Source: Acidobacteriota bacterium (lineage in GTDB: Bacteria; Acidobacteriota; UBA4820; DSQY01). Taken from it: a stretch of DNA of 64,000 nucleotides. The stretch lies in the NCBI GenBank assembly GCA_021787565.1, contig JAJYLT010000012.1, forward strand, positions 28,166 to 92,165. Reading direction: 5' to 3'. The notes beneath the pieces are model-generated. The model saw nothing but the letters and a program-made list of their open reading frames with translations. It was not told the origin of the DNA and did no database searches. The translations under genes were made by a program, and so were the position numbers. Shown piece by piece: positions 990-18,778 of this stretch. Positions within the stretch are counted from its first letter, which is position 1. The number at the start of each line of letters is the position of its first letter.

Positions 990-2326
990 CGGCCTCCTCC
1001 AGCCGCCCCTCCCAGAGGTAGGTCCGCGTCTCGGCCACCAGCACGCCGCTCAGCGCCAGGAGGGAGACGAGGTTTGGCACCGCCATGAGGGCGTTGGCGA
1101 TGTCCGCGAAGGACCAGACCAGGGGCAGGGTGGCCACCGAACCGAGGAGAACCGCCCCCACCCAGAGCAGGCGGTAGGGGAAGATCACCTTCGGGCCGAA
1201 GAGGTACTCGGCGGCCTTCTCGCCGTAGTAGGACCAGCCCAGGATCGTGGAGAAGACGAAGGTGAGCAGGGCGAAGGTCAGGAGGTAGGGGCCGATGGCC
1301 GAAAGGTCCTGGAAGGCGCTGCGCGTGAGGGCGGCCCCCTGCAGCCCCTTGGTCCAATCGGCGGAGATCACCAGGACCAGCCCCGTCATGCCGCAGACCA
1401 CCACCGTGTCCCAGAAGGTGCCGGTGGAGGAGACGAGGGCCTGGCGGACGGGGTTCTTGGTCTGCGCCGCCGCGGCCACGATGGGGGCGCTGCCCAGCCC
1501 GGACTCGTTGGAGAACAGCCCCCTCGCGATGCCGAAGCGCATGGCCTGGAGCACCCCCGCCCCGAGGAAGCCGCCGGCTGCGGCCTGGGCCGTGAAGGCG
1601 TCCTTCACGATGAGCAGGATGGTGGCCGGAATCTCCGGGGCGTGCATGATCAGGATGAAGGCGCAGCCGATGATGTAGACGAGGGCCATGACGGGGACGA
1701 GCGCCTCGCAGACGCGGGCGATGGATTGGATCCCGCCGAGGATGACCACGGCCGTGAGCACCGTCATGGCCGTGCCGGTGACCCACGGCGAGAGGGAGAA
1801 GGTCTCCTTCGCCAGGGTGGCGATGGAGTTGGCCTGCACCATGTTGCCGATGCCGAAGGCGGCGAAGGCCGTCAGGGCGGCGAAGATCAGCCCCAGCCAG
1901 CGGGCCTTCATGCCCCGTTCGAGCACGTACATGGGGCCGCCCGCCATGGAGCCGTTGGGCATCGTCACGCGGTACTTGACGGAGAGGAGCGCCTCGGAGT
2001 ACTTCGTCGCGATGCCAAAGACCCCCGTCAGCCACATCCAGAGCACGGCCCCTGGCCCTCCGGCCGCCACGGCCGTGGCCACGCCCACGATGTTGCCCGT
2101 GCCGATGGTGGCCGCCAGCGCGGTGGTGAGCGCGCCGAACTGGCTCACGTCCCCCTCGCCCTCCCGGCCGCGGCCGAGGGAGAGGCGGATCCCCTTGAAG
2201 GTGTAGCGCTGGACGAAGCGGAGCCGGAAGGTGAGGTAGAGGTGCGTCCCGAAGAGGAGGATGAGCATGGGGGGGCCCCACACCTGGTTGCTCACCGCCC
2301 CCGCCAGTTTCTCCAGGGCTTCCATT
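982..2326 (-). CDS. Na+/alanine (amino acid) symporter, AGCS family
   Basis: N-terminus MEALEKLAGAVSNQVWGPPMLILLFGTHLYLTFRL, multiple TM segments, and a TALAATIGTGNIVGVATAV motif typical of AGCS. Confidence 0.8.
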
Positions 2327-2404
2327 CCGCTCCTCTCCCGGCCCGACGCGCCGCCCGCCCATCCTCGCATCGGGGCCAGCCCCCGGTCAAGGAAAGGAGG
2401 GGGA

Positions 2405-2556
2405 CCCCAATTCCGCGATAGCGGCTCAACGCCTGCGTAGGAGCGGCGCCTCGCCGCGAACCGGGTGACCCTGCGACCAGGATGCGGTGCCCGCGTACGG
2501 TCCGTCGCGCCGGGGGCGGCGCTCCTACGAGTGCAATTCCATCGCGGAATTTGGGG
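2405..2556 (-). repeat. 150-bp REPIN-like element copy 1 (two inverted REP-like GTAGGAGCG hairpins)
   Basis: Near-identical to 19540-19689 and 28007-28158 in inverted orientation. Termini ccccaa(a)ttccgcgat... are inverted repeats, and the internal sequence GTAGGAGCGCCGCCCCCGGCGCGAC forms a hairpin. Confidence 0.7.
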
Positions 2557-2901
2557 AGGAGAAGAGCGGAGCGAAAGACGGGGTCAGGAGTGAAAAGAGA
2601 CAGCGGCACCACCAAGCCATGCGGCAGGCCGATATGGCCGTGGGTGTCGGGATGGCGTGCCATGCTGACGTGAGAACGCCGTGCTCGCGCCCACGCGGCG
2701 CGGTCACGTGGCGGGCGGCTTATGGCAGGACGGAAGCAAGGCCGGCCGAAGCCAGCGTAACGAACCGACCGGGAACTCCGTTCTGTGTACGGTGTCATGT
2801 CATGCCGGGTGCCGGAACGGCACGGCCGTTGCCAATGGGCTTCCTTGGCATTGAAGGAATGGGGAAGTCTGCGGCCTGCCCGGAAGCTCCCCGTATCTTG
2901 A

Positions 2902-5900
2902 GTGACGCCGGGCGGCATGGACGAGTCGGAGAGAGGGGGGTTCACCATGGCAATGGGGAAGGGCTGGACGGCGCGTGGCAGCGCGCGGGCGGTGGCGTGC
3001 ATCTGCTGCATGGTGGCGTCGATGGCCGGCGTCAGCGCGTGGGGGCAGCAGGCGCTCTCGTTTGTCGAGAGCGCTCCTGGGTTTCAAGCGGTCATGCCGT
3101 ATCAAAATTTCGGCAATGGAGAACACATCAACATCGGAAATGGCGGACTGACAGTCATCCATCCTTCGGCCATTTCGCTGCCGCAGAACATGGGCCAGGT
3201 GCTCCGTCCCACGCGCGTATACAACAGCAAGAACCCCAACCTGCCCTTTGGGGTCGATATCGATGATAATTTCAACTACCAGGCGGACCTCCCGTACGGT
3301 CCTCTCGGCATGGGGTGGCAGCTCAACTACGGGCGGGTGTTCTTTCGGATGGGCGAGGCGGACGTTCCCAATACCGGGGCCGGTGCGGAAGGGACAACGG
3401 AAAAAATATCGCTCTGTTTTTATTACTACCAAGACGAGAGTGGCGCCGAACATGAGCTGTATCTGAAGGGGGGCACTGAAAATTACACGGGACCGGGCTC
3501 GAGCAGCCAGAACCCGAACGACTATCCGTGTGCTAATTCGCCGGTGGCCGGAACCTGGTACGTGACGAACGATGGAAGTTACTTGCGAGCGCTCTTTACG
3601 GGAGGGGCGAACGGCGGGACATGGACCATTTATTACCCGGATGGCTCGACGCGGGTTGCGGGGGGAGCGAACGCCTATTTTCAGCCCATTCCAAACGCGG
3701 CGGCTGGAACCGTACACCAGAATGGTGATGGTACGTACTGGTATCAGGCCGGGCTCCAGAACATGCGGACGAATGGTTGGTACGTGACTTCCATCAAAGA
3801 CATCGCGGGCAACACGATTACCCTGAGCTACCTCGCCGCGAACAGCCCCGGCTATCCCGGGTACAATAAGGCTGGTGCCCTTGTTCTTCCCGGGTCCATC
3901 AATCAGATCACGGACGAGTTCAATGTCTCTACTCGCGCTGTCACCTTCCATTACAGCCAGGGACTGCTGTCGAGCATCTCGGCTTACGGATATGGGGGGC
4001 AGGCACTGACGGAGTCGTACACCTATACCACCGGGATTTTCGGCAATCATAATGAGAGCCTGCCCCTGCTCCAGGAAGTCACGACACCAGACGACCTCCA
4101 AACGGTCTACGGGTACACGGCCGTGACCGACGACGCCGGTGTACCATGGATGCTCCTCTCGCAGATCGGCTATCCAACGGGTGCAGTTTCCTCCTACACC
4201 TATGGAACCTGGAGTTTCGAATGGCGCGTACCGGCTGCTATCTTCGAAGCGACGGGGCAGTGGCAGAGCAAGGGGGAAACAGAGGTCGCGGTGACGAGCC
4301 ACACCATCACCCTGGCGCCGCTGAATCTGCCTGAAGGCAGCGGAGGCTTGGGATCACCGAACAACAGCTTGACGTGGACTTATCAATATTACGGGAACAA
4401 CCCGTCAGCGAATCCTCCCGAGAACTATTACTTGAACTACCTGAACCGTTCCGTCAACGATCAACCTATCATGTCCATGCCCGTGCTCGTGACGGATCCG
4501 CTGGGGACTCAGGAGGCCCACTTCATCGCCTTCGGAGATCTCGACAGCTCCGTGAGCACCCTGGTGCCGGCAGGGCACGAAATCGCGGTGATTCGTTACG
4601 CTCAGGGGACGGTCTTTGATCCCAGCAGCGCCACCAGCGTGGAAAACGGGCGGATCTTTGAGAAAGACCTCTATTACTCCTCCGGCTTCGGGGTTCATGA
4701 TAACGAGCGGATGGGGGATGCGGGTTTCTGCGGGGATTATACGGGTGGGGCCGCGCTGACCCCGCTGGACATCATTCCGAACTCGAACCCGCGCATCTGG
4801 AAGGTGGTGGAGACCGAGTATACGCCGGCGTCCGGCTCGCCCGGGACGCCGCAGTGGAGCCGCACCACCCGGCATGCTTTCTGGGACGGGTTCGGCCACT
4901 ATCTGGTGACCGAGGTCGGCCAGACAGCGGACCTGACTGGCACGGGGTCCAGTACCTATCCAGTCATGCGTGTGACAGTGTCCCAATACGCCCTTCAGAC
5001 GGAGGGGAAGACCTCTTACCAGACCAACGAGTTGGTGCAGCAGTACACCGGCGGGAACATGAGCGCCGGTCCCTTTCCGGCCGTCAATGCGCCGCCTGCA
5101 GGAACGACCTCGCTGGCCCTCCTGCAAACGCAGGTGCCCGATTCCGAAGACCAGGCAACGGAATCATCCTCCGGCACCTACTCTATTTCGGAGCCTACGG
5201 GTGGAGGGGGCGGGCTGCGGGCGATCTCCTACACGTACACCACCACGGGTCTCCTCGCCTCCAAGATCGAGTATGAAGCGGTCCAGCATAGCGTCACAGC
5301 GGGGTGGACCCCAGCCACGTCGACCTCTTCCTGGTCCTGGAACATCAGCCCTCCGCAGTCGCCGTCTCCAGAGAATGAAGGCGGGGATGTGACGACCTCC
5401 TATAACTACGATCCCAACGGCAATATCTCTCAGCTCGAGTACTCTCAAACCGGCGACTCCTACACCATGATCTTCGACTGGACAGATGGTGTGGTGAGTT
5501 CTCTCCAATGGAGCCGGAGCGGGTGGCCCGCCGGGCTCTGGACGCGCAAGATCGACCAGTACTCGAGCCTGATCAGGAGCCAGACGGATATCTGTACAAG
5601 CGGCGGACTGACGACCAGCTACGCCTATGATAGTGCCGACCGCCTCTCGATCATCGCACCGCCCGGCGAGTACCCGGTCAATATCGCCTACCCCCCCACG
5701 ACAACGTCGCAGAGTATCGGAAAGGTCCACCAGTGGAACATTGAACACGTTATCGAGTACTACAAGGGCCAGCATGCCATCTCGTCCGGCACCGTCACGG
5801 CGCTGCCCCCCGACGAGAGCCAGCTGGCGACACCCAGCAATTTCGGCCCCCAGGATCTTTACAGCCAGTACACCTTCGACGGCCTGGGGCGGCTGTGGAA

Positions 5901-8900
5901 GACGGACACGGTGCGGCCTGACGGCGGCTGGCGGGAGCAGGTCACCCTCTACGATCCGCTGGGGAGGAAGCTCTTCGCCTCGCTGCCCTACGATCCGGCC
6001 AGTTCGCCCGGAATCAGAACGATAACCTACCCGCTCGCGAGCGGCAGCGCCTTCACCTTCGGCGTGCCGATGGGCACATCGGGCAACGCGCTGGGCACAT
6101 GGGACATGATCCAGTCGGGCAATCCTCTCTCTGGGTGGGGGACGCTGGATCCCTTCTACCGGACGGTGGAGGTGATCCGGCCCGACGGCTCGACCACGAC
6201 CACCACCTACGCCAGCCAGCTTGACTGGACGACCACCATCAACGGCGTCGGCGGCGGAGGGCAGTCCAGCGGTATGGAGTATACGAAGGATATCCTCGGG
6301 GAGCTTCTCACCGCGACCCCCGTGCAGGCGGCCAGCATCGGGGCCAGCGGGACCTATTCCTATGACGGCCTGGGGCATCTCACCAACGTCAGCCTGAGCG
6401 GACAGACGCGAAGCTACCAATACGACGCGCTGGGGCACCTACTCAGCCAAACCAACCCCGAGACGGGGACCATCACCTACGGCAGCTACGACGCCCTGGG
6501 AAACCTTCTGAGCTATACCGACGCCAACGGAAATGCGATCAGCGAGGCCTATGACTTCATGGGGCGTCGCACGAGCGTGAGCAGTAACGGCCAGACCCTG
6601 GCTACGTGGAGCTACGACGGGGGCGGCAGCGGACCCTACGACCGCCTGACCGGGACCGAGACCACCGCGAGCCCTCTCGCGACGCCTCCGCCCTTCGGCA
6701 ACGGCGGTACGGTTACCGAGGCCTTCACTTACGATCCGGCCACCGGCCGGATCGCCGGGAAGAGCGTCTCGTTCAGCCTGGGCAGCCAGATCCCGGCCGA
6801 GAGCTACAGCCTCTCCTACGGATACGACCTGATGGGGAACCTGGCGACGGAGGGTGTGGGGGGATCCAGCTCCTTCGGCTACACCCTCACCTCGGCCTAC
6901 GGGCACGGCGGACTGCTCTCGAAGAGCTTCCAGGACGGACAAGGCGTCTCCGCGATTCAGTACTTTCCTTCGGGGGCGCTCCAGAGCCTCGCCTACACGA
7001 ACGGCACGACCACCTCGTTCGCGCAGGACGCGGTGGAGCGGCTCGACGGGATTGCCGTCGCCAAGGGCTCCTCTTCGCTCTGGTCCACCGGCTCCTACAC
7101 CTACGACGGGGCGGGGAACATCCTCTCGATCGGCTCGGACAGCTTCACCTACGACCTGCTGAGCCGCCTCACCGGCGCGACGGTGAACCACAGGAACCCG
7201 GCGACGGAAGCGGCCGGGTCGGTGCAACTCACGTACGGCTACGACCCCTGGGGGAACCTCACCTCGAGGGTCGCGCAGGTTGTGAACGGCAATAACATGG
7301 ACCCTGGCAGCCCGAACCAGACCACGTTCCTGGGCGAGACGAACTTCACGGCCACGTACAATGCCTCCAACCAGCTCCAGACGCTCAACAACCAGCCGAT
7401 GCCGAGCGGCATCTACGACGCGAACGGGAACCTGACCACGGAAGGCAACAACATCCTCACCTACGACCCGCTGAACCAGGTTCAGCAAGCGGTCACACCG
7501 GGCAGTTCGCAGACGCCCTCCTACAGGGACTACTATTTCTACGATGCCTCAGGCGAGCGCGTGGCTTCGGTCCATACGACCGCCTCGACGAGCCAGTTGA
7601 ACACCGTGACCTACTACGCCCGGACGGGGTCTCAGGTCCTCGCCGAGGAGCACCTGGCGCTGGATGGGAGCACGCCAGCGGACCACGTGAAGGCGTACCT
7701 GTACGTGGGGTCGAACCTGGCCACCTCCGAGGAGGGGGACGTGGGGGGCGCCGGCGGCACCTACAGCATCTCGGGCACCATCACGCTGAACGGCTCGGGG
7801 CTCTCCGGGGTGACGGTCAGCGCCGGGACGGGCGGCACGGCCACTACGGACGGCAATGGCAACTACACCATCAGCAACCTGGCGAACGGCACCTACACGG
7901 TGACGCCGAGCCTGAGCGGGTACACCTTTTCGCCGGCGAGCGCCTCGGAGACGGTGAACGGCGCCAACATCACGGGCGTGAACTTCACGGCTGCGGTGGT
8001 GACCACGACCTACAGCCTCTCGGGCACGGTGACGCTGAACGGCTCGGGGCTCGCCGGGGTGACGGTGAGTGCGGGTTCGGCCTCGGCGCAGACGGACAGC
8101 AGCGGGGTCTACACGATCAGCGGCCTGACGAACGGCACCTATACGGTGGACCCGAGCCTGAGCGGCTACACGTTTTCGCCGGCGAGCGCCTCGGAGACGG
8201 TGAACGGTGCCAACATCACGGGCGTGAACTTCACGGCTGCGGTGGTGACCACGACCTACAGCCTCTCGGGCACGGTGACGCTGAACGGCTCGGGGCTTTC
8301 GGGGGTGACGGTGACGGCCGGGTCCTATTCGGCCTCGACGAACAGCACGGGGGCCTACACGATCAGCGGCCTGGGGAACGGCACCTTCACGGTGACCCCG
8401 AGCCTGAGCGGGTACACCTTCTCCCCGGCCAGCGCCTCGGAGACGGTGAACGGGGCCAACATCACCGGGGTGAACTTCACGGCGAGCGCGGTGATCGGGA
8501 CGACGACGCTCTTCAGCGACGGGTTCGAGGGCAGCGCGTGGTCCACGGCGCAGGTGTCCGGGACCGCGGGTGCCTGGACCATGGTGACCTCCGGGGCCAA
8601 TCCCGGCGCCTCCCCCCATGGGGGCTCTTATATGGCCGATTTCAACTCCCATACCGCCGCCGCGGGAAGCGAGACGCGTCTTTACACGACATCGGGCTTC
8701 GCCATCCCCTCGCAGGCGGGCGCCGTGGTCACGCTGACCTTCTGGATGGATCACGACACGGGCTTTTCGAGTGCGGGCGACGAGGTGCAGGTGCAGGTCT
8801 CCACGAACGGCGGGGGCACCTGGACGGACGTGCCGAACGTGGTGGCGGACGGGTTCTTCCGCGTGAACGGCAGCACGGGCTGGGCCGAGATGAGTCTGGA

Positions 8901-15679: not shown

Positions 15680-16712
15680 GGGGTCAGGTCTTTAGTGTTA
15701 GCCTCACTTGTGCTATGCTCCGGGGGTATGGTCTTTGTGTGGATTCATGAACGGCCCTAGGGAGGTGAATGATGGCCCGTCCGCTTCGGATTGAGTTTTC
15801 TGGTGCGGTTTACCATGTGACGTCGCGCGGGAATGATCGTCGGACGATCTTCCGGGACGACGAGGACCGGCGGCGATTCCTGGAGGTTCTCGGCCGGACG
15901 GTGGTGCGTTGGGGATGGGTGGTTCACGCCTACTGTCTCATGGGCAACCACTACCACCTCGTGATCGAAACGCCCGAGCCGAACCTCTCGCGAGGGATGC
16001 GGCAGCTGAACGGGGAGTATACGCAGGCGTTCAACCGTCGGCACGTGCGGGTGGGGCACCTCTTCCAGGGGCGCTTCAAGGCGCTGGTGGTGGAGAAGGA
16101 GAGCCACCTGCTGGAGCTGTGCCGGTATGTGGTGCTCAATCCGGTTCGCGCGCGTGGCATGCGGGTGGGCTCTCCCGAAGACTGGCCATGGAGCAGCTAT
16201 CGCGCGACAGCGGGAAGGGGCTCGGCGCCGGCATGGTTGACGGTGTCATGGATCTTGTCGCGCTTCGGCAAAGATGGGGCCAAGGCCCGAGAAGGGTACC
16301 GGCGCCTCGTGGCTGCGGGCATGGGACAGAGGCCGGACCTGGACGAGTGGGCAGGCTTGTGGATCGGGTCGGAGGGTTTCGGGGCGCGCCTGAGGGGCCT
16401 GCTCGGGGAAAAGGAAGAGGTCCGCGAGCACCCTAGGCGCCAGCGCCGCCCGGATCGTCCAGATCTGGCGTCCTACCTGCCGTTGGACCTTTGCGAGGAC
16501 CGGGCCAAGAGGGACGAGGCCGTCTACGGCGCCTACATCGAGGGGCGTTTCAGCCAGCGGGAGATCGCGGATCACCTCGGCTTGCACTACGTCACCATCA
16601 GTGGCATCGTCCGTGCCAAGGAGTTGGAGAAGCGACAAGATGGTAAGACCGAAAGGAAAAGGAGATAGCGGCCGGCCGTGGACAGAGACACTAACACTAA
16701 AGACCTGACCCC
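15680..16712 (+). mobile_element. 1033-bp insertion element with perfect 22-bp TIRs (GGGGTCAGGTCTTTAGTGTTAG) encoding a HUH/Y1 transposase
   Basis: Left TIR 15680-15701 and right TIR 16691-16712 are exact reverse complements. It interrupts an Rhs core sequence. No obvious target-site duplication. Confidence 0.75.
15769..16668 (+). CDS. HUH/Y1 tyrosine transposase-like protein (IS200/RAYT-like) with C-terminal HTH
   Basis: HUH motif GNHYHLVIETP. Candidate catalytic Tyr WPWSSYRAT. C-terminal HTH REIADHLGLHYVTISGIV. Confidence 0.7.
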   Translation: MMARPLRIEFSGAVYHVTSRGNDRRTIFRDDEDRRRFLEVLGRTVVRWGWVVHAYCLMGNHYHLVIETPEPNLSRGMRQLNGEYTQAFNRRHVRVGHLFQGRFKALVVEKESHLLELCRYVVLNPVRARGMRVGSPEDWPWSSYRATAGRGSAPAWLTVSWILSRFGKDGAKAREGYRRLVAAGMGQRPDLDEWAGLWIGSEGFGARLRGLLGEKEEVREHPRRQRRPDRPDLASYLPLDLCEDRAKRDEAVYGAYIEGRFSQREIADHLGLHYVTISGIVRAKELEKRQDGKTERKRR

Positions 16713-16923
16713 TGTCTTGACTGTCTTTCACTACTAAGCCGCTATCCGGCTACAGAATTATCTTGGACAGCAGTGATGGGACCTCCTTTTCCCGGCTCCA
16801 GGCTGGCGCTCACCCCTTGCGACACCGCCGAACCCCCTTCCGATTGGTCCGCGGTGAGGCGCGGATCACACTTTCGATGGCGCCTCGGGTAACTTCCCTC
16901 TCGCCGCCATCGTACAATGGCGC

Positions 16924-17895
16924 ATGGAGAAGACCATGACGGAAAGCGGAGAGAGGGTGGAGGATCACGAAGGGGGGCGGAGGGCCAAGGGATCTCCAGT
17001 GGGATGGCTTCGCCGCGTCTTCATCGGGAAGGCGGGCCTCAGAACGGGCTGGAGACTCCTTCTGTTCATCGTTCTGACGGGAGCGGGAATGGGAATCCTC
17101 CGGCTGGGGATCTCGGCCGTCCCCGGTGCCAAGCAGCTTGTTCGGCTCCAAGAGGGGCAGCTGTTCAGTTCGGTGACTCTTCTCGTCTCGGAGGTGATCT
17201 CGTGCCTCGCCCTCCTTGCGGCCGGGCTCGTCATGGCCCGGATCGAGGGAAAGTCCATCTTTACGTACGGCTTCGCGTTGAGGAGGGACCTCGGGCTGCG
17301 GCTCGTGGAGGGGGCCGCATGGGGGTTCGTATTCGTGACAGCCTTGTATGCCCTCCTCGCCGTCGAAGGGGGATTTCTGGTGCAGGGATTCGAGACCGGC
17401 GGCGCTCTGCTCCTTTCCTCAGCAGGCCTATGGGCCGTGGCCTGTCTCGGGGTCGGCCTGGCCGAGGAGTTCTCCTTCCGGGGCTACGGGCAGCACACGC
17501 TCGCCGGCGGAATCGGCTTCTGGCCCGCGGCGGTGATCCTATCCTTCGTCTTTGGAGTTCTTCATCTGGCCAATCCGGGCGAGGGCTGGGCAGGTGCCGC
17601 GAGTGCGGCCGTCTTCGGCCTCTTCTTCTGCTTCTCCCTCAAGAGGACGGGCACCCTCTGGCTCGCGATGGGGATGCATGCTGCGTTCGACTTCGGGGAG
17701 ACGTTCCTCTTCGCAGGCTCGACCGGCCTCCTCGCGACGAAGAGACACCTTCTCGAAAGCGCCGTCCACGGACCCGCGTGGCTGACTGGGGGAAGCGTGG
17801 GGCCCGAAGCCGGAGTCAACGGCCTCGTCCTCTTCCCCCTCCTCTTTCTGGCTTTCCACTTGACCCATCCCGAACAGGCGGAGACTCCGTCCTGA
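16924..17895 (+). CDS. CPBP-family intramembrane metalloprotease (CAAX protease/Abi domain)
   Basis: EEFSFRGY (EExxxR), FGVLHL (FxxxH) and HAAFDF motifs, with several TM helices. Confidence 0.7.
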   Translation: MEKTMTESGERVEDHEGGRRAKGSPVGWLRRVFIGKAGLRTGWRLLLFIVLTGAGMGILRLGISAVPGAKQLVRLQEGQLFSSVTLLVSEVISCLALLAAGLVMARIEGKSIFTYGFALRRDLGLRLVEGAAWGFVFVTALYALLAVEGGFLVQGFETGGALLLSSAGLWAVACLGVGLAEEFSFRGYGQHTLAGGIGFWPAAVILSFVFGVLHLANPGEGWAGAASAAVFGLFFCFSLKRTGTLWLAMGMHAAFDFGETFLFAGSTGLLATKRHLLESAVHGPAWLTGGSVGPEAGVNGLVLFPLLFLAFHLTHPEQAETPS

Positions 17896-18465
17896 GGCGC
17901 ACCCAGGCCCGACGCGGGACATCCCGCGGCTCCATCGGGACTTTGACGGGAATTCCCAACGGGGCGCCGGAGACTTGGTGTTGTGTCCCCGAAATAGCTT
18001 TACGGGGCATCCTGACCAGGGACACAACACTTCCCCAGGGGTTCCGCCCCTGGAACGCCCGCCCGCGGCGGGCTGTAACCTCGAAAGAGCGGGGAAGCCT
18101 CTTCCCCGCGCCCCTTTGGGTGCTGTCTACCACGCAATGCCACTGTCAACCTTTTCAGGGACAGCACCCTAGCGTGGTGTCTCCGAAACGGGTTCAACAG
18201 GAAGGCTCGCCCCATAATTCGTGCACGTCCGGAGGGCAGGCAGGCCTTCCAAGCGTCTTAGGCGCTTTTCCGGGCGAGTAGCGCCGGAGGGAGAGGCCTG
18301 GTCTGGTGCGGATCATCTCGAGGTATTCCCGCGAAGGGCTCCTTTGGAGAACCTGCCCTGAGGGCGTCCTTGCGAAGGGAAGCTCCCAAGGGAATCTCGG
18401 CTGTCCTTTCTCGGCCTTCCCGTTGTCGCCACGGGGGAACGCGGGGTCAGGGGGAACGGGAACGA

Positions 18466-18501
18466 GGGGTCAGGTCTTTCATTGCCACATTTCGCTCATC
18501 C
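18466..18501 (+). repeat. 36-bp junction element (copy 2)
   Basis: Identical to 13804-13839. Lies in a 560-bp noncoding stretch. Confidence 0.6.
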
Positions 18502-18778
18502 GGCCGCGTGCGATTCGGGGGACATGCTGTCCGGTCCGCGGGTCCATGGGATTGAGGGGATCGGCCGATGGGGGCATCGACCGCCAAGGGTGAATGGGAA
18601 CATTCGGGGGCGGACAGGCGGGGCGCCTGTCCCTCCCGAGTCTGGGGGGGCCGAGCCGCTGAGGAGCGGCGCCGCTTCGCCGGTTCTGCGCACCCTGCGG
18701 ATCTCTCTCCCGGCTGTGCCTTCCGTTCCTTTGGCCCGACAGGGAGAGCGCGAGGGCCGGCTTCCGGCCGGGTCCTGC

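What the first reader, a model, noticed from the sequence alone, without database searches (positions are those of the whole stretch)
15680..16712. Y1/HUH transposase element with perfect 22-bp terminal inverted repeats inserted into an Rhs cassette
HUH single-strand transposases (IS200/IS605, RAYT) normally lack TIRs. Here a 299-aa HuH (HYH) and Tyr protein with a C-terminal HTH is flanked by exact inverted repeats GGGGTCAGGTCTTTAGTGTTAG and has truncated orphan cassette 4. The 14-nt terminus GGGGTCAGGTCTTT recurs twice more (13804 and 18466) with a different internal sequence. All three occurrences are preceded by a GGGAAC-containing G-rich motif, suggesting a target preference or related element family.
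Basis: seen in the sequence. Interest (0 to 1): 0.65.

Follow-up and report, generated by a model that had tools for sequence, protein, structure and literature searches.

The report
TIR-flanked tyrosine transposase gene (TIRYT "TIRtron")
This is a real 1,033-bp unit, a RAYT-like single-strand-DNA tyrosine nuclease gene bracketed by perfect 22-bp inverted repeats, but it belongs to a class already described in 2013 (TIRYT/"TIRtron") and looks like an old resident of this locus rather than a fresh insertion into the Rhs toxin cassette.

Summary
Perfect 22-nt inverted repeats (15680-15701 / 16691-16712) bracket a 298/299-aa Y1-HUH protein with a C-terminal helix-turn-helix.

The architecture is not anomalous. 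It defines the TIRYT/"TIRtron" class (Di Nocera 2013; subclass 2.1 of Quentin 2018). Its published TIR motif GGGGWSAS is exactly how this TIR starts (GGGGTCAG).

- **Protein:** 35-45% identical to named TIRYTs, against 23% to E. coli RAYT. Its best structural match is RAYT (4ER8).
- **Family-wide termini:** all five homologues chosen by protein alone (54-61% identity, five phyla) carry GGGGTCAG[G/A]TCTT at one or both ends (four of five at both).
- **Short derivatives:** the same termini form 48-263-nt hairpin doublets elsewhere.
- **The window's "36-mers":** solo arms of a sister TIR family.

Simple insertion into the Rhs cassette is not supported. The cassette does not resume to the right of the element. 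A 92%-identical ortholog sits in the same SIR2...LON neighbourhood in a related genome and has diverged as much as its neighbours.

GGGAAC is not a general target motif (0 of 183 termini). A looser purine-rich box does precede termini in close relatives.

Verdict: a new member of a known but biochemically uncharacterised kind. Interest is low to moderate.

The parts
15680..15701 (+). Left terminal inverted repeat, GGGGTCAGGTCTTTAGTGTTAG. It starts with the published TIRYT motif GGGGWSAS.
   Evidence: Exact match. Homology to orthologs L004 and L005 begins here. Motif taken from PMC3733652 and PMC6006769.
15702..15771 (+). Leader between the left TIR and the start codon. It has a conserved CACTTGTGCTATGCT stretch (TGn-TATGCT, read by eye as an extended -10) and a GGAGG Shine-Dalgarno at 15761-15765.
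   Evidence: Conserved in L004 and L005. The consensus promoter scan found nothing, so the promoter reading is inference only.
15772..16668 (+). TIRYT gene: 298 aa from the second ATG, or 299 aa from 15769. Y1-HUH core about residues 1-155, middle helical domain, C-terminal HTH about residues 255-285.
   Evidence: Pfam Y1_Tnp 6.6e-13. NCBIfam REP_Tyr_transpos 75.6 bits, cut-off 80. 44.5% identity to TIRYT Smlt4509. AF2 pLDDT 89.7. Foldseek top hit 4er8_A. HTH families in homologues.
16691..16712 (-). Right terminal inverted repeat, the exact reverse complement of the left TIR.
   Evidence: Homology to L004 and L005 ends here.
13804..13839 (+). Solo arm ('36-mer') of a sister TIR family, GGGGTCAGGTCTTTCATTGCCACATTTC... 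It abuts the 5' boundary of Rhs orphan cassette 2.
   Evidence: The same arm occurs as palindromic doublets in Nitrospirota, Gammaproteobacteria and Actinobacteria MAGs. It has no secondary structure of its own.
18466..18501 (+). Second solo arm of the sister TIR family, upstream of the LON-substrate-binding-domain gene. It is conserved at the syntenic position in L004.
   Evidence: The blastn alignment to L004 starts exactly at 18466.
18435..18474 (+). Tandem duplication of the junction (GGGAACGN flank plus the first 9 nt of the arm): GGGAACGCGGGGTCAGG ... GGGAACGAGGGGTCAGG.
   Evidence: Repeat family D5. The same type of junction duplication is seen at 17 of 181 termini in other genomes and in L145.
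15583..15669 (+). Truncated Rhs core fragment (context, not part of the element). It is followed by a 10-nt linker, AGGGGGGGTA (15670-15679).
   Evidence: Alignment to cassette 2 ends at 15669. No remainder is found to the right of the element.

Best explanation
Window 15680-16712 is a 'TIRtron'. [quoted passage not shown] TIRYTs are the RAYT-like Y1-HUH branch with a C-terminal HTH, subclass 2.1 of Quentin et al. The outer 13 nt of the repeats (GGGGTCAGGTCTT) are a family-wide box.

**Shown**
- The catalytic residues are intact.
- The unit has exact boundaries.
- The same termini flank homologues in many phyla. They also occur as short hairpin-forming doublets (MITE/REPIN-like) and as solo arms.
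- In this lineage the gene is a syntenic, vertically inherited resident. Strain-specific DNA (the Rhs block and an Rce1-like gene) abuts the outer ends of the termini.

**Inferred, by analogy with TnpA-REP and IS608 TnpA**
- On single-stranded DNA the two arms pair into a stem.
- The enzyme recognises the GGGGTCAGGTCTT box. The HTH probably contributes.
- It nicks at or just outside GGGG through Tyr120, with H61/H63 holding the metal.
- It rejoins strands, moving TIR-bounded units (mostly the short doublets, in trans) without target-site duplication.

The two 36-mers are immobile solo arms of a sister family.
For: **Family identity**
- Y1_Tnp and near-threshold REP_Tyr_transpos hits.
- BLASTP to the named TIRYTs of Di Nocera's Additional file 5: Smlt4509 44.5% over 155 aa (E 1.5e-37), Smlt1152, Pfl 148A, Pcar 3049, Acid345_2776, GSU2396. 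E. coli RAYT gives 23%.
- The only PDB sequence hit, and the best fold hit, is RAYT 4ER8 (TM 0.79 normalised to the target).
- HTH_23 and HTH_28 in homologues, as described for subclass 2.1.
- The TIR starts GGGGTCAG, which fits GGGGWSAS.
- The single ends have no hairpin of their own (z +1.3 and -1.5), unlike IS200/IS605 ends or REPs.

**Termini are a family property**
- All five homologues picked by protein alone carry the GGGGTCAG[G/A]TCTT box at one or both ends; four of the five at both ends in inverted orientation, and P0088 (L144) shows it only at the right end.
- So do 7 more with 42-53% identity in the pattern-selected loci.
- There are 47 doublets of 48-263 nt. Those tested fold with z -4.3 and -5.4.
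- At least 10 doublets occur in one Thermoanaerobaculia MAG.

**Discrete unit**
- Homology to L004 and L005 spans 15680/15681 to 16713/16718, i.e. the TIR outer ends to within one base on three sides and six bases past the right end for L005.

**Resident, not recent**
- L004 has the same SIR2 - TIRYT - 36-mer - LON - PDDEXK order.
- The element is 91.9% identical; its neighbours are 92-96%.
- All contigs carrying the identical protein show the same context.

**Mobility exists in the family**
- An element encoding an identical protein (P0102) sits in three different contexts.
Against: - No biochemical data exist for any TIRYT, so the cleavage site, the strand specificity and the role of the HTH are analogy only.
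- The NCBIfam RAYT model score is below its cut-off (75.6 against 80).
- Copy number in the whole source genome could not be counted. Only 64 kb plus short contigs were available.
- L005 carries the 89% ortholog in a different neighbourhood, so some movement within this lineage is possible.
- The exact coincidence of flank changes with TIR ends is also what a mobile element would show.
Confidence: 0.8

Rival explanations
1. One reading: an active, autonomous HUH insertion sequence recently transposed into Rhs orphan cassette 3/4 and truncated it.
For: - The unit is discrete, with exact ends.
- A truncated Rhs fragment ends 10 nt from the left TIR.
- Family members can be mobile: an element encoding an identical protein (P0102) sits in three contexts.
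- The 89% ortholog in L005 has other neighbours.
Against: - The rest of the cassette is absent to the right of the element by tblastn and blastn, so it is not a simple insertion.
- The 92% ortholog in L004 lies in the same SIR2...36-mer-LON-PDDEXK frame without any Rhs DNA. It has diverged as much as its neighbours.
- There is one copy in 64 kb.
- The identical protein is always found in the same context.
Confidence: 0.12
2. The inverted repeats are ordinary genomic repeats or regulatory sites (for example operators for the HTH domain, or terminators) that merely happen to flank the gene, with no role in DNA cleavage or mobility.
For: - The protein has an HTH, and the left repeat overlaps a possible promoter region.
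- The gene is single-copy and syntenic here.
- Solo arms sit in intergenic DNA upstream of genes.
Against: - The termini flank homologues of 42-61% identity in many phyla, at fixed distances.
- They mark the exact limits of homology between contexts.
- They form families of short doublets.
- The catalytic HUH and Tyr residues are invariant.
Confidence: 0.05
3. It is a canonical RAYT/REPIN system, meaning a domesticated nuclease with REP palindromes, rather than a TIRYT.
For: - The best structural and PDB sequence match is E. coli RAYT.
- JGI names homologues 'RayT'.
- Doublets resemble REPINs.
- The gene shows single-copy, vertical inheritance like RAYTs (PMC5581495).
Against: - Single arms are not palindromes or hairpins.
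- There is no consistent GTAG tag.
- The protein is far closer to named TIRYTs than to RAYT.
- It has the extra C-terminal HTH of subclass 2.1.
- The NCBIfam RAYT score is below the cut-off.
Confidence: 0.03

Closest known systems
TIRYT / TIRtron (Di Nocera, De Gregorio & Rocco 2013, BMC Genomics 14:522; PMC3733652)
   Same: - RAYT-like Y1-HUH gene flanked by terminal inverted repeats instead of REPs.
- The TIR carries GGGGWSAS (here GGGGTCAG).
- TIR copies also occur as singles, dimers and groups.
- 35-45% identity to the named members Smlt4509, Smlt1152, Pfl 148A, Pcar 3049, Acid345_2776 and GSU2396.
   Different: - This protein is longer: 299 aa against 216-238 aa for the listed members. 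The extra length is a distinct C-terminal HTH.
- It is not in the short Acidobacteria-specific TIRYT group of that paper. Identity is only 21% to aba 1552 (a short Koribacter TIRYT outside that group) and 29% to the group member aba 3477.
TnpA-Y1 subclass 2.1, probably subgroup 2.1.2 (Quentin, Siguier, Chandler & Fichant 2018, BMC Genomics 19:475; PMC6006769)
   Same: - Long RAYT-related proteins with a C-terminal HTH (Bac_DnaA_C, HTH_23 or HTH_28).
- No REP-like hairpins nearby.
- Equated by the authors with TIRYTs.
   Different: Placement in their tree was not computed here. This protein's own HTH hit is sub-threshold. The HTH_23 and HTH_28 hits come from its homologues.
RAYT / TnpA-REP with REP/REPIN (E. 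coli YafM, PDB 4ER8; Pseudomonas REPINs)
   Same: - Y1-HUH fold with the YxxxNPV and W-x-W-S-S type motifs.
- Gene bracketed by its own recognition sequences in inverted orientation.
- Short doublets that fold as hairpins.
- Single-copy, vertically inherited gene.
   Different: - The recognition sequence is a non-palindromic 22-nt arm, not a GTAG-tagged palindrome.
- There is an extra HTH domain.
- Only 23% identity.
- Few copies in the sampled DNA.
IS200/IS605 TnpA (IS608, ISDra2)
   Same: Same Y1-HUH catalytic fold. No target-site duplication is visible at the ends.
   Different: IS200/IS605 ends are asymmetric with sub-terminal hairpins and no TIRs. Here the ends are symmetric TIRs without hairpins of their own.

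Membership tests
TIRYT / TIRtron (Di Nocera 2013) | Y1 transposase homologous to RAYT, with an HUH motif, a catalytic Tyr and RAYT-type motifs | tested here: met
   Y1_Tnp 6.6e-13. REP_Tyr_transpos 75.6 bits. H61/Y62/H63, Y120, N124-P125 and W139/W141/S142 are invariant or nearly so in 46 homologues. 4ER8 is the best fold match.
TIRYT / TIRtron (Di Nocera 2013) | Gene flanked by terminal inverted repeats rather than by REP palindromes or hairpins | tested here: met
   Perfect 22-nt TIR. Left and right ends fold no better than shuffles (z +1.28 and -1.52).
TIRYT / TIRtron (Di Nocera 2013) | TIR carries the GGGGWSAS motif (majority group) | tested here: met
   The TIR begins GGGGTCAG. Motif as quoted.
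TIRYT / TIRtron (Di Nocera 2013) | Closer in sequence to named TIRYTs than to REP-associated RAYTs | tested here: met
   Eleven named TIRYTs give E 1e-26 to 1e-37. E. coli RAYT gives E 1e-7 at 23% identity.
TIRYT / TIRtron (Di Nocera 2013) | TIR sequences also dispersed as single, dimeric or grouped copies | tested here: met
   A doublet of this TIR type occurs in L005, L093, L126, L128 and L133. The window itself holds only two solo arms of a sister type. The whole source genome was not available.
TnpA-Y1 subclass 2.1 (Quentin 2018) | Additional C-terminal HTH domain (Bac_DnaA_C, HTH_23 or HTH_28) | tested here: met
   HTH_23 in 22 of 46 homologues and HTH_28 in 12 of 46. This protein's own hit is only HTH_Crp_2 at 19 bits, below the cut-off. 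The C-terminus is helical in the AF2 model.
TnpA-Y1 subclass 2.1 (Quentin 2018) | Position in the authors' phylogeny | not tested
   Their reference sequences and tree were not available in the tools.
RAYT / REPtron | Flanked by REP palindromes (GTAG-tagged hairpins) that are abundant in the genome | tested here: not met
   Single arms are unstructured. There is no consistent GTAG. Only 4 termini occur in 64 kb.
RAYT / REPtron | Score above the NCBIfam REP_Tyr_transpos equivalog cut-off | tested here: not met
   75.6 bits against a cut-off of 80.
IS200/IS605 | Asymmetric ends with sub-terminal hairpins and no TIRs | tested here: not met
   Perfect TIRs. No significant hairpins at either end.
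IS200/IS605 | Multiple identical copies per genome (insertion-sequence behaviour) | tested here: inconclusive
   One copy in the window, with one context for the identical protein. In another lineage an element encoding an identical protein is in three contexts. The full genome was not scanned.

The most novel reading that the evidence does not exclude
The outer ends of TIRYT repeats, including solo arms, may be the joints at which the resident TIRYT gains or loses strain-specific DNA. Three boundaries of variable DNA between two 92%-identical genomes fall at or within one base of a GGGG terminus (15680, 16712/13, 18466). A solo arm directly abuts the 5' edge of an Rhs orphan toxin cassette (13804-13842). 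Junctions are often tandemly duplicated. If this reading is right, a 'domesticated' HUH nuclease would act as a site-specific single-strand recombinase that builds a variable island, including Rhs toxin/immunity cassettes, rather than only moving its own repeats.
Probability: 0.08. Interest if true: 0.65.

Novelty: new member of a known kind. Interest (0 to 1): 0.3.

Why it matters
TIRYTs are a very large but biochemically untouched branch of the HUH/Y1 nucleases. More than 8,000 relatives were scored in one search, which reached the tool's 8,000-candidate scoring cap.

This locus adds no new class, but the follow-up sharpens three points for the family:
- The conserved terminal box is about 13 nt (GGGGTCAGGTCTT), not 8. 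It is kept across at least ten phyla while the proteins drift to about 45-60% identity.
- The unit's ends are defined to within a base or so by comparing contexts.
- Both behaviours occur in the family: resident single-copy genes, as here, and insertion-sequence-like copies in several contexts.

These points give concrete substrates for a first in-vitro test of how a Y1 enzyme handles symmetric, non-hairpin ends.

Tried and rejected
- **Rfam scan of the whole window:** no family at gathering score, so the repeats are not a catalogued RNA or ssDNA motif.
- **Exact look-up of the 299-aa ORF:** not on record. The database protein starts at the second ATG (P0001).
- **Literature search for the terminal sequence itself:** only unrelated primer hits.
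- **Target-site duplication:** flanks of three orthologs and of the doublets show none.
- **GGGAAC as a target motif:** 0 of 183 termini elsewhere, and 52 copies in the window anyway. Rejected.
- **Association of termini with Rhs genes:** tblastn of the Rhs core found it in only 2 of 120 unrelated loci (L037, L097). This is about what chance would give. Not pursued.
- **Sigma-70 promoter scan of the element:** none found.
- **Metagenome scan for this exact TIR type:** only 8 contigs, so this sub-type is rare in that collection.
- **IS91-type Y2 transposase:** not pursued, since the Pfam hit is Y1_Tnp, not Y2_Tnp.

Full report
**1.
- The 22-mer GGGGTCAGGTCTTTAGTGTTAG occurs exactly twice in 64 kb, at 15680-15701 (+) and 16691-16712 (-). 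None is expected by chance. The imperfect repeat reaches 30 nt.
- A single ORF lies between the repeats, 15769-16668. The identical database protein P0001 starts at the second ATG, 15772. GGAGG lies 6 nt upstream of that ATG.
- The 14-nt terminus recurs at 13804 and 18466, inside a 47-nt direct repeat.
- A truncated Rhs core fragment ends at 15669, 10 nt before the left repeat.

**2. The protein is a RAYT-like Y1-HUH nuclease with an added HTH.**
- Pfam Y1_Tnp scores 6.6e-13. NCBIfam 'REP-associated tyrosine transposase' scores 75.6 bits, just under its 80-bit cut-off.
- In an alignment of 46 homologues, H61-Y62-H63, Y120 (in RYVVLNPVR) and W139/W141/S142 are invariant (numbering of the 299-aa ORF).
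- The only PDB sequence hit is E. coli TnpA-REP, 4ER8.
- A confident AlphaFold model (pLDDT 89.7) has 4ER8 as its best structural match (TM 0.79 on the target). ISDra2 and IS608 TnpA follow.
- The C-terminal 80 residues are helical. In homologues they hit HTH_23 (22 of 46), HTH_38 and HTH_28.
- The family is very large. The search reached its 8,000-candidate scoring cap and every candidate scored passed E <= 0.001, so the true number is unknown; many are labelled 'RayT' by JGI.

**3. The architecture is already described.**
- Di Nocera et al. 2013 named RAYT-like genes flanked by terminal inverted repeats 'TIRYTs' and the units 'TIRtrons'. They noted that many TIRs share GGGGWSAS, lie at similar distances from the gene, and also occur as single, dimeric or grouped copies.
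- Quentin et al. 2018 equate TIRYTs with their subclass 2.1: long proteins with a C-terminal Bac_DnaA_C, HTH_23 or HTH_28 domain and no REP-like hairpins nearby.
- The TIR here starts GGGGTCAG, which fits GGGGWSAS.
- I rebuilt the named TIRYT sequences from Di Nocera's Additional file 5. The window protein is 35-45% identical to them (Smlt4509 44.5% over 155 aa, E 1.5e-37). It is 23% identical to E. coli RAYT.
- The single ends have no secondary structure beyond shuffled controls (z +1.3 left, -1.5 right). This separates them from IS200/IS605 ends and from REPs.
- No later experimental work on TIRYTs was found in the library.

**4. The termini belong to the gene family, not to this genome.**
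I estimated about 17 chance hits. The loci come from many phyla: WOR-3, Thermoanaerobaculia, other Acidobacteriota, Alpha-, Gamma- and Deltaproteobacteria, Actinobacteria, Nitrospirota, Planctomycetota, CPR and others.
- That scan required the 13-mer, so I also chose five homologues by protein alone (54-61% identity; five phyla). All five carry the GGGGTCAG[G/A]TCTT box 20-80 nt outside the gene, four of them at both ends in inverted orientation; P0088 (L144) shows it only at the right end.
- Seven further homologues of 42-53% identity in the scan loci are bracketed in the same way.
- The terminal box is therefore much better conserved than the protein.

**5. Short derivatives exist.**
- Forty-seven inverted pairs of 48-263 nt were found, next to four of 0.9-2.0 kb.
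- The doublet of this TIR type in L005, 56 nt, folds with z -4.3. The one in L128, 54 nt, folds with z -5.4.
- One Thermoanaerobaculia MAG has at least 10 doublets with identical 34-nt arms.

**6. The window's 36-mer is one arm of another such family.**
- The 36-mer is GGGGTCAGGTCTTTCATTGCCACATTTC...
- Elsewhere it is seen as perfect palindromic doublets, for example L032, L086, L087 and L119.
- In the window it occurs only as solo, unstructured arms.

**7. It is not a simple insertion into the Rhs cassette.**
- The cassette fragment stops at 15669. Nothing to the right of the element resembles its continuation.
- The contig carrying the 93%-identical protein (L004) has the same gene order: SIR2-like gene, TIRYT unit, 36-mer, LON-substrate-binding-domain gene, PDDEXK gene.
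- Nucleotide identity with L004:

| Segment | Identity |
|---|---|
| SIR2-like gene | 95.8% |
| TIRYT unit | 91.9% |
| 36-mer/LON segment | 92.0% |
| PDDEXK gene | 91.9% |

- The unit has therefore diverged together with its neighbours.
- What differs is the DNA on either side of the unit, at the two junctions below:

| Junction | Window | L004 |
|---|---|---|
| SIR2 to left TIR | 14.7 kb (997-15679: a 462-aa ORF, the large Rhs gene and its orphan cassettes) | 123 nt |
| Right TIR to 36-mer | 1,753 nt with an Rce1-like gene | 241 nt (gene remnant) |

- The alignments start at 15680, end at 16713, and restart at 18466. Variable DNA thus abuts the outer G of three termini to within one base.
- All contigs with the identical protein show the window's context.
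- The 89% ortholog in L005 has other neighbours, so some movement in the lineage cannot be excluded.
- In a Thermodesulfovibrionia lineage an element encoding an identical protein sits in three contexts, with homology ending a few bases outside the TIRs. The family does include currently mobile, insertion-sequence-like members.

**8. Target motif.**
- GGGAAC is absent from the 30 nt upstream of all 183 termini in other genomes.
- In the window, two of its three occurrences are within the duplicated 47-mer. The third is Rhs coding sequence.
- Across 181 termini, position -2 is A in 46% and position -1 is T in 45%.
- In the close Acidobacteria-type sub-lineage (43 termini), positions -7 to -4 relative to GGGTCAGG are 82% purine, with consensus GARAAN-G.
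- These flanks differ between orthologs while the TIR is invariant. They look more like a loose site preference, or a cleavage-site requirement, than part of the element. This is inference.
- No target-site duplication is seen.

**9. Likely mechanism.**
- Shown: an intact Y1-HUH active site, an added HTH, symmetric non-hairpin ends with a conserved 13-nt box, exact unit boundaries, hairpin-forming short derivatives, and mobility in some lineages.
- Inferred from TnpA-REP and IS608 TnpA chemistry (established knowledge of the HUH superfamily): on single-stranded DNA the two arms pair. The enzyme recognises the box, nicks at the base of the stem through Tyr120 with a 5'-phosphotyrosyl intermediate, and reseals donor and product without duplication.
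- Because the ends are symmetric, either strand could serve, unlike IS608.
- The HTH may read the duplex stem. Quentin et al. note that the box does not resemble a DnaA box.
- In this genome the gene behaves like a resident, RAYT-style single-copy gene. Compare Bertels et al. 2017 on RAYTs.

**10. Verdict.**
- The finding is a correct description of a TIRtron, a new member of a known but experimentally unexplored kind.
- The 'related element family' idea for the 36-mer does hold.
- The coincidence of strain-variable DNA with termini, and the recurrent junction duplications, remain unexplained. They are the only parts with some potential for novelty.

Noticed in passing
window 18435-18474; also L028, L029, L031, L037, L079, L091, L097, L110 and L145 2374-2421: Tandem duplications of the junction, made of 5-9 nt of flank plus the first 7-21 nt of the TIR, repeated 2-4 times just outside the terminus. 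A second GGGTCA lies within 30 nt upstream of 17 of 181 termini. I expected about 1 by chance, and only 4 are found inside the elements. No mechanism is known. They could be footprints of abortive or repeated strand transfer.
   Followed up: partly
window 13796-13842 and 18458-18504: A 47-nt direct repeat (94%) containing the solo arm brackets a 4.66-kb segment. The segment holds orphan cassette 2, its putative immunity gene, the cassette-3 fragment, the TIRYT unit and the Rce1-like gene. The first copy ends exactly where homology of orphan cassette 2 to the main Rhs gene begins (about 13838).
   Followed up: partly
window 997-15679 and 16714-18465, compared with L004 2789-2911 and 3946-4186: Strain-specific DNA between two 92%-identical genomes is confined to the two intervals that touch the TIRYT termini. 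L004 carries a 241-nt fragment that reads by eye like an RCC1-repeat gene remnant, where the window has an Rce1-like (CPBP) gene.
   Followed up: partly
L118 253-1994 (Thermoanaerobaculia MAG) and L055 5483-7465 (Uhrbacteria MAG): Inverted termini 1.7-2.0 kb apart. The L118 pair, which has the same TIR type as the window, encloses ORFs of 362 and 116 aa with no TIRYT homology. It may be a TIR-bounded unit with other cargo, or two unrelated solo arms.
   Followed up: no
L145-L148 113-1318: In an Actinobacteria lineage the TIRYT unit lies directly downstream of an IS91-type Y2 transposase (Zn_Tnp_IS91 + Y2_Tnp) and a phage-integrase gene, so it sits in a mobile-element cluster.
   Followed up: no
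L134-L137 2377-2444: The right end of the 61%-identical Acidobacteriota homologue is itself a 68-nt doublet (+ arm at 2377, - arm ending at 2444). This is a REPtron-like arrangement of TIR arms.
   Followed up: no
window 2902-11337 and 11702-13396: The large Rhs/YD-repeat gene appears as two long ORFs separated by about 365 nt. It may be a frameshift or assembly break, or two genes. The Rhs core domain (TIGR03696) is in the second ORF and again in orphan cassette 2 (13820-14815).
   Followed up: no
L005 5494-5549 and 5512-5982 (- strand): The 56-nt TIR doublet in the 89% ortholog's contig overlaps the 3' end of a 156-aa YD-shell (Rhs-type) gene fragment. This is a second case of an Rhs fragment abutting these repeats. 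The wider test showed no enrichment (2 of 120 loci).
   Followed up: partly
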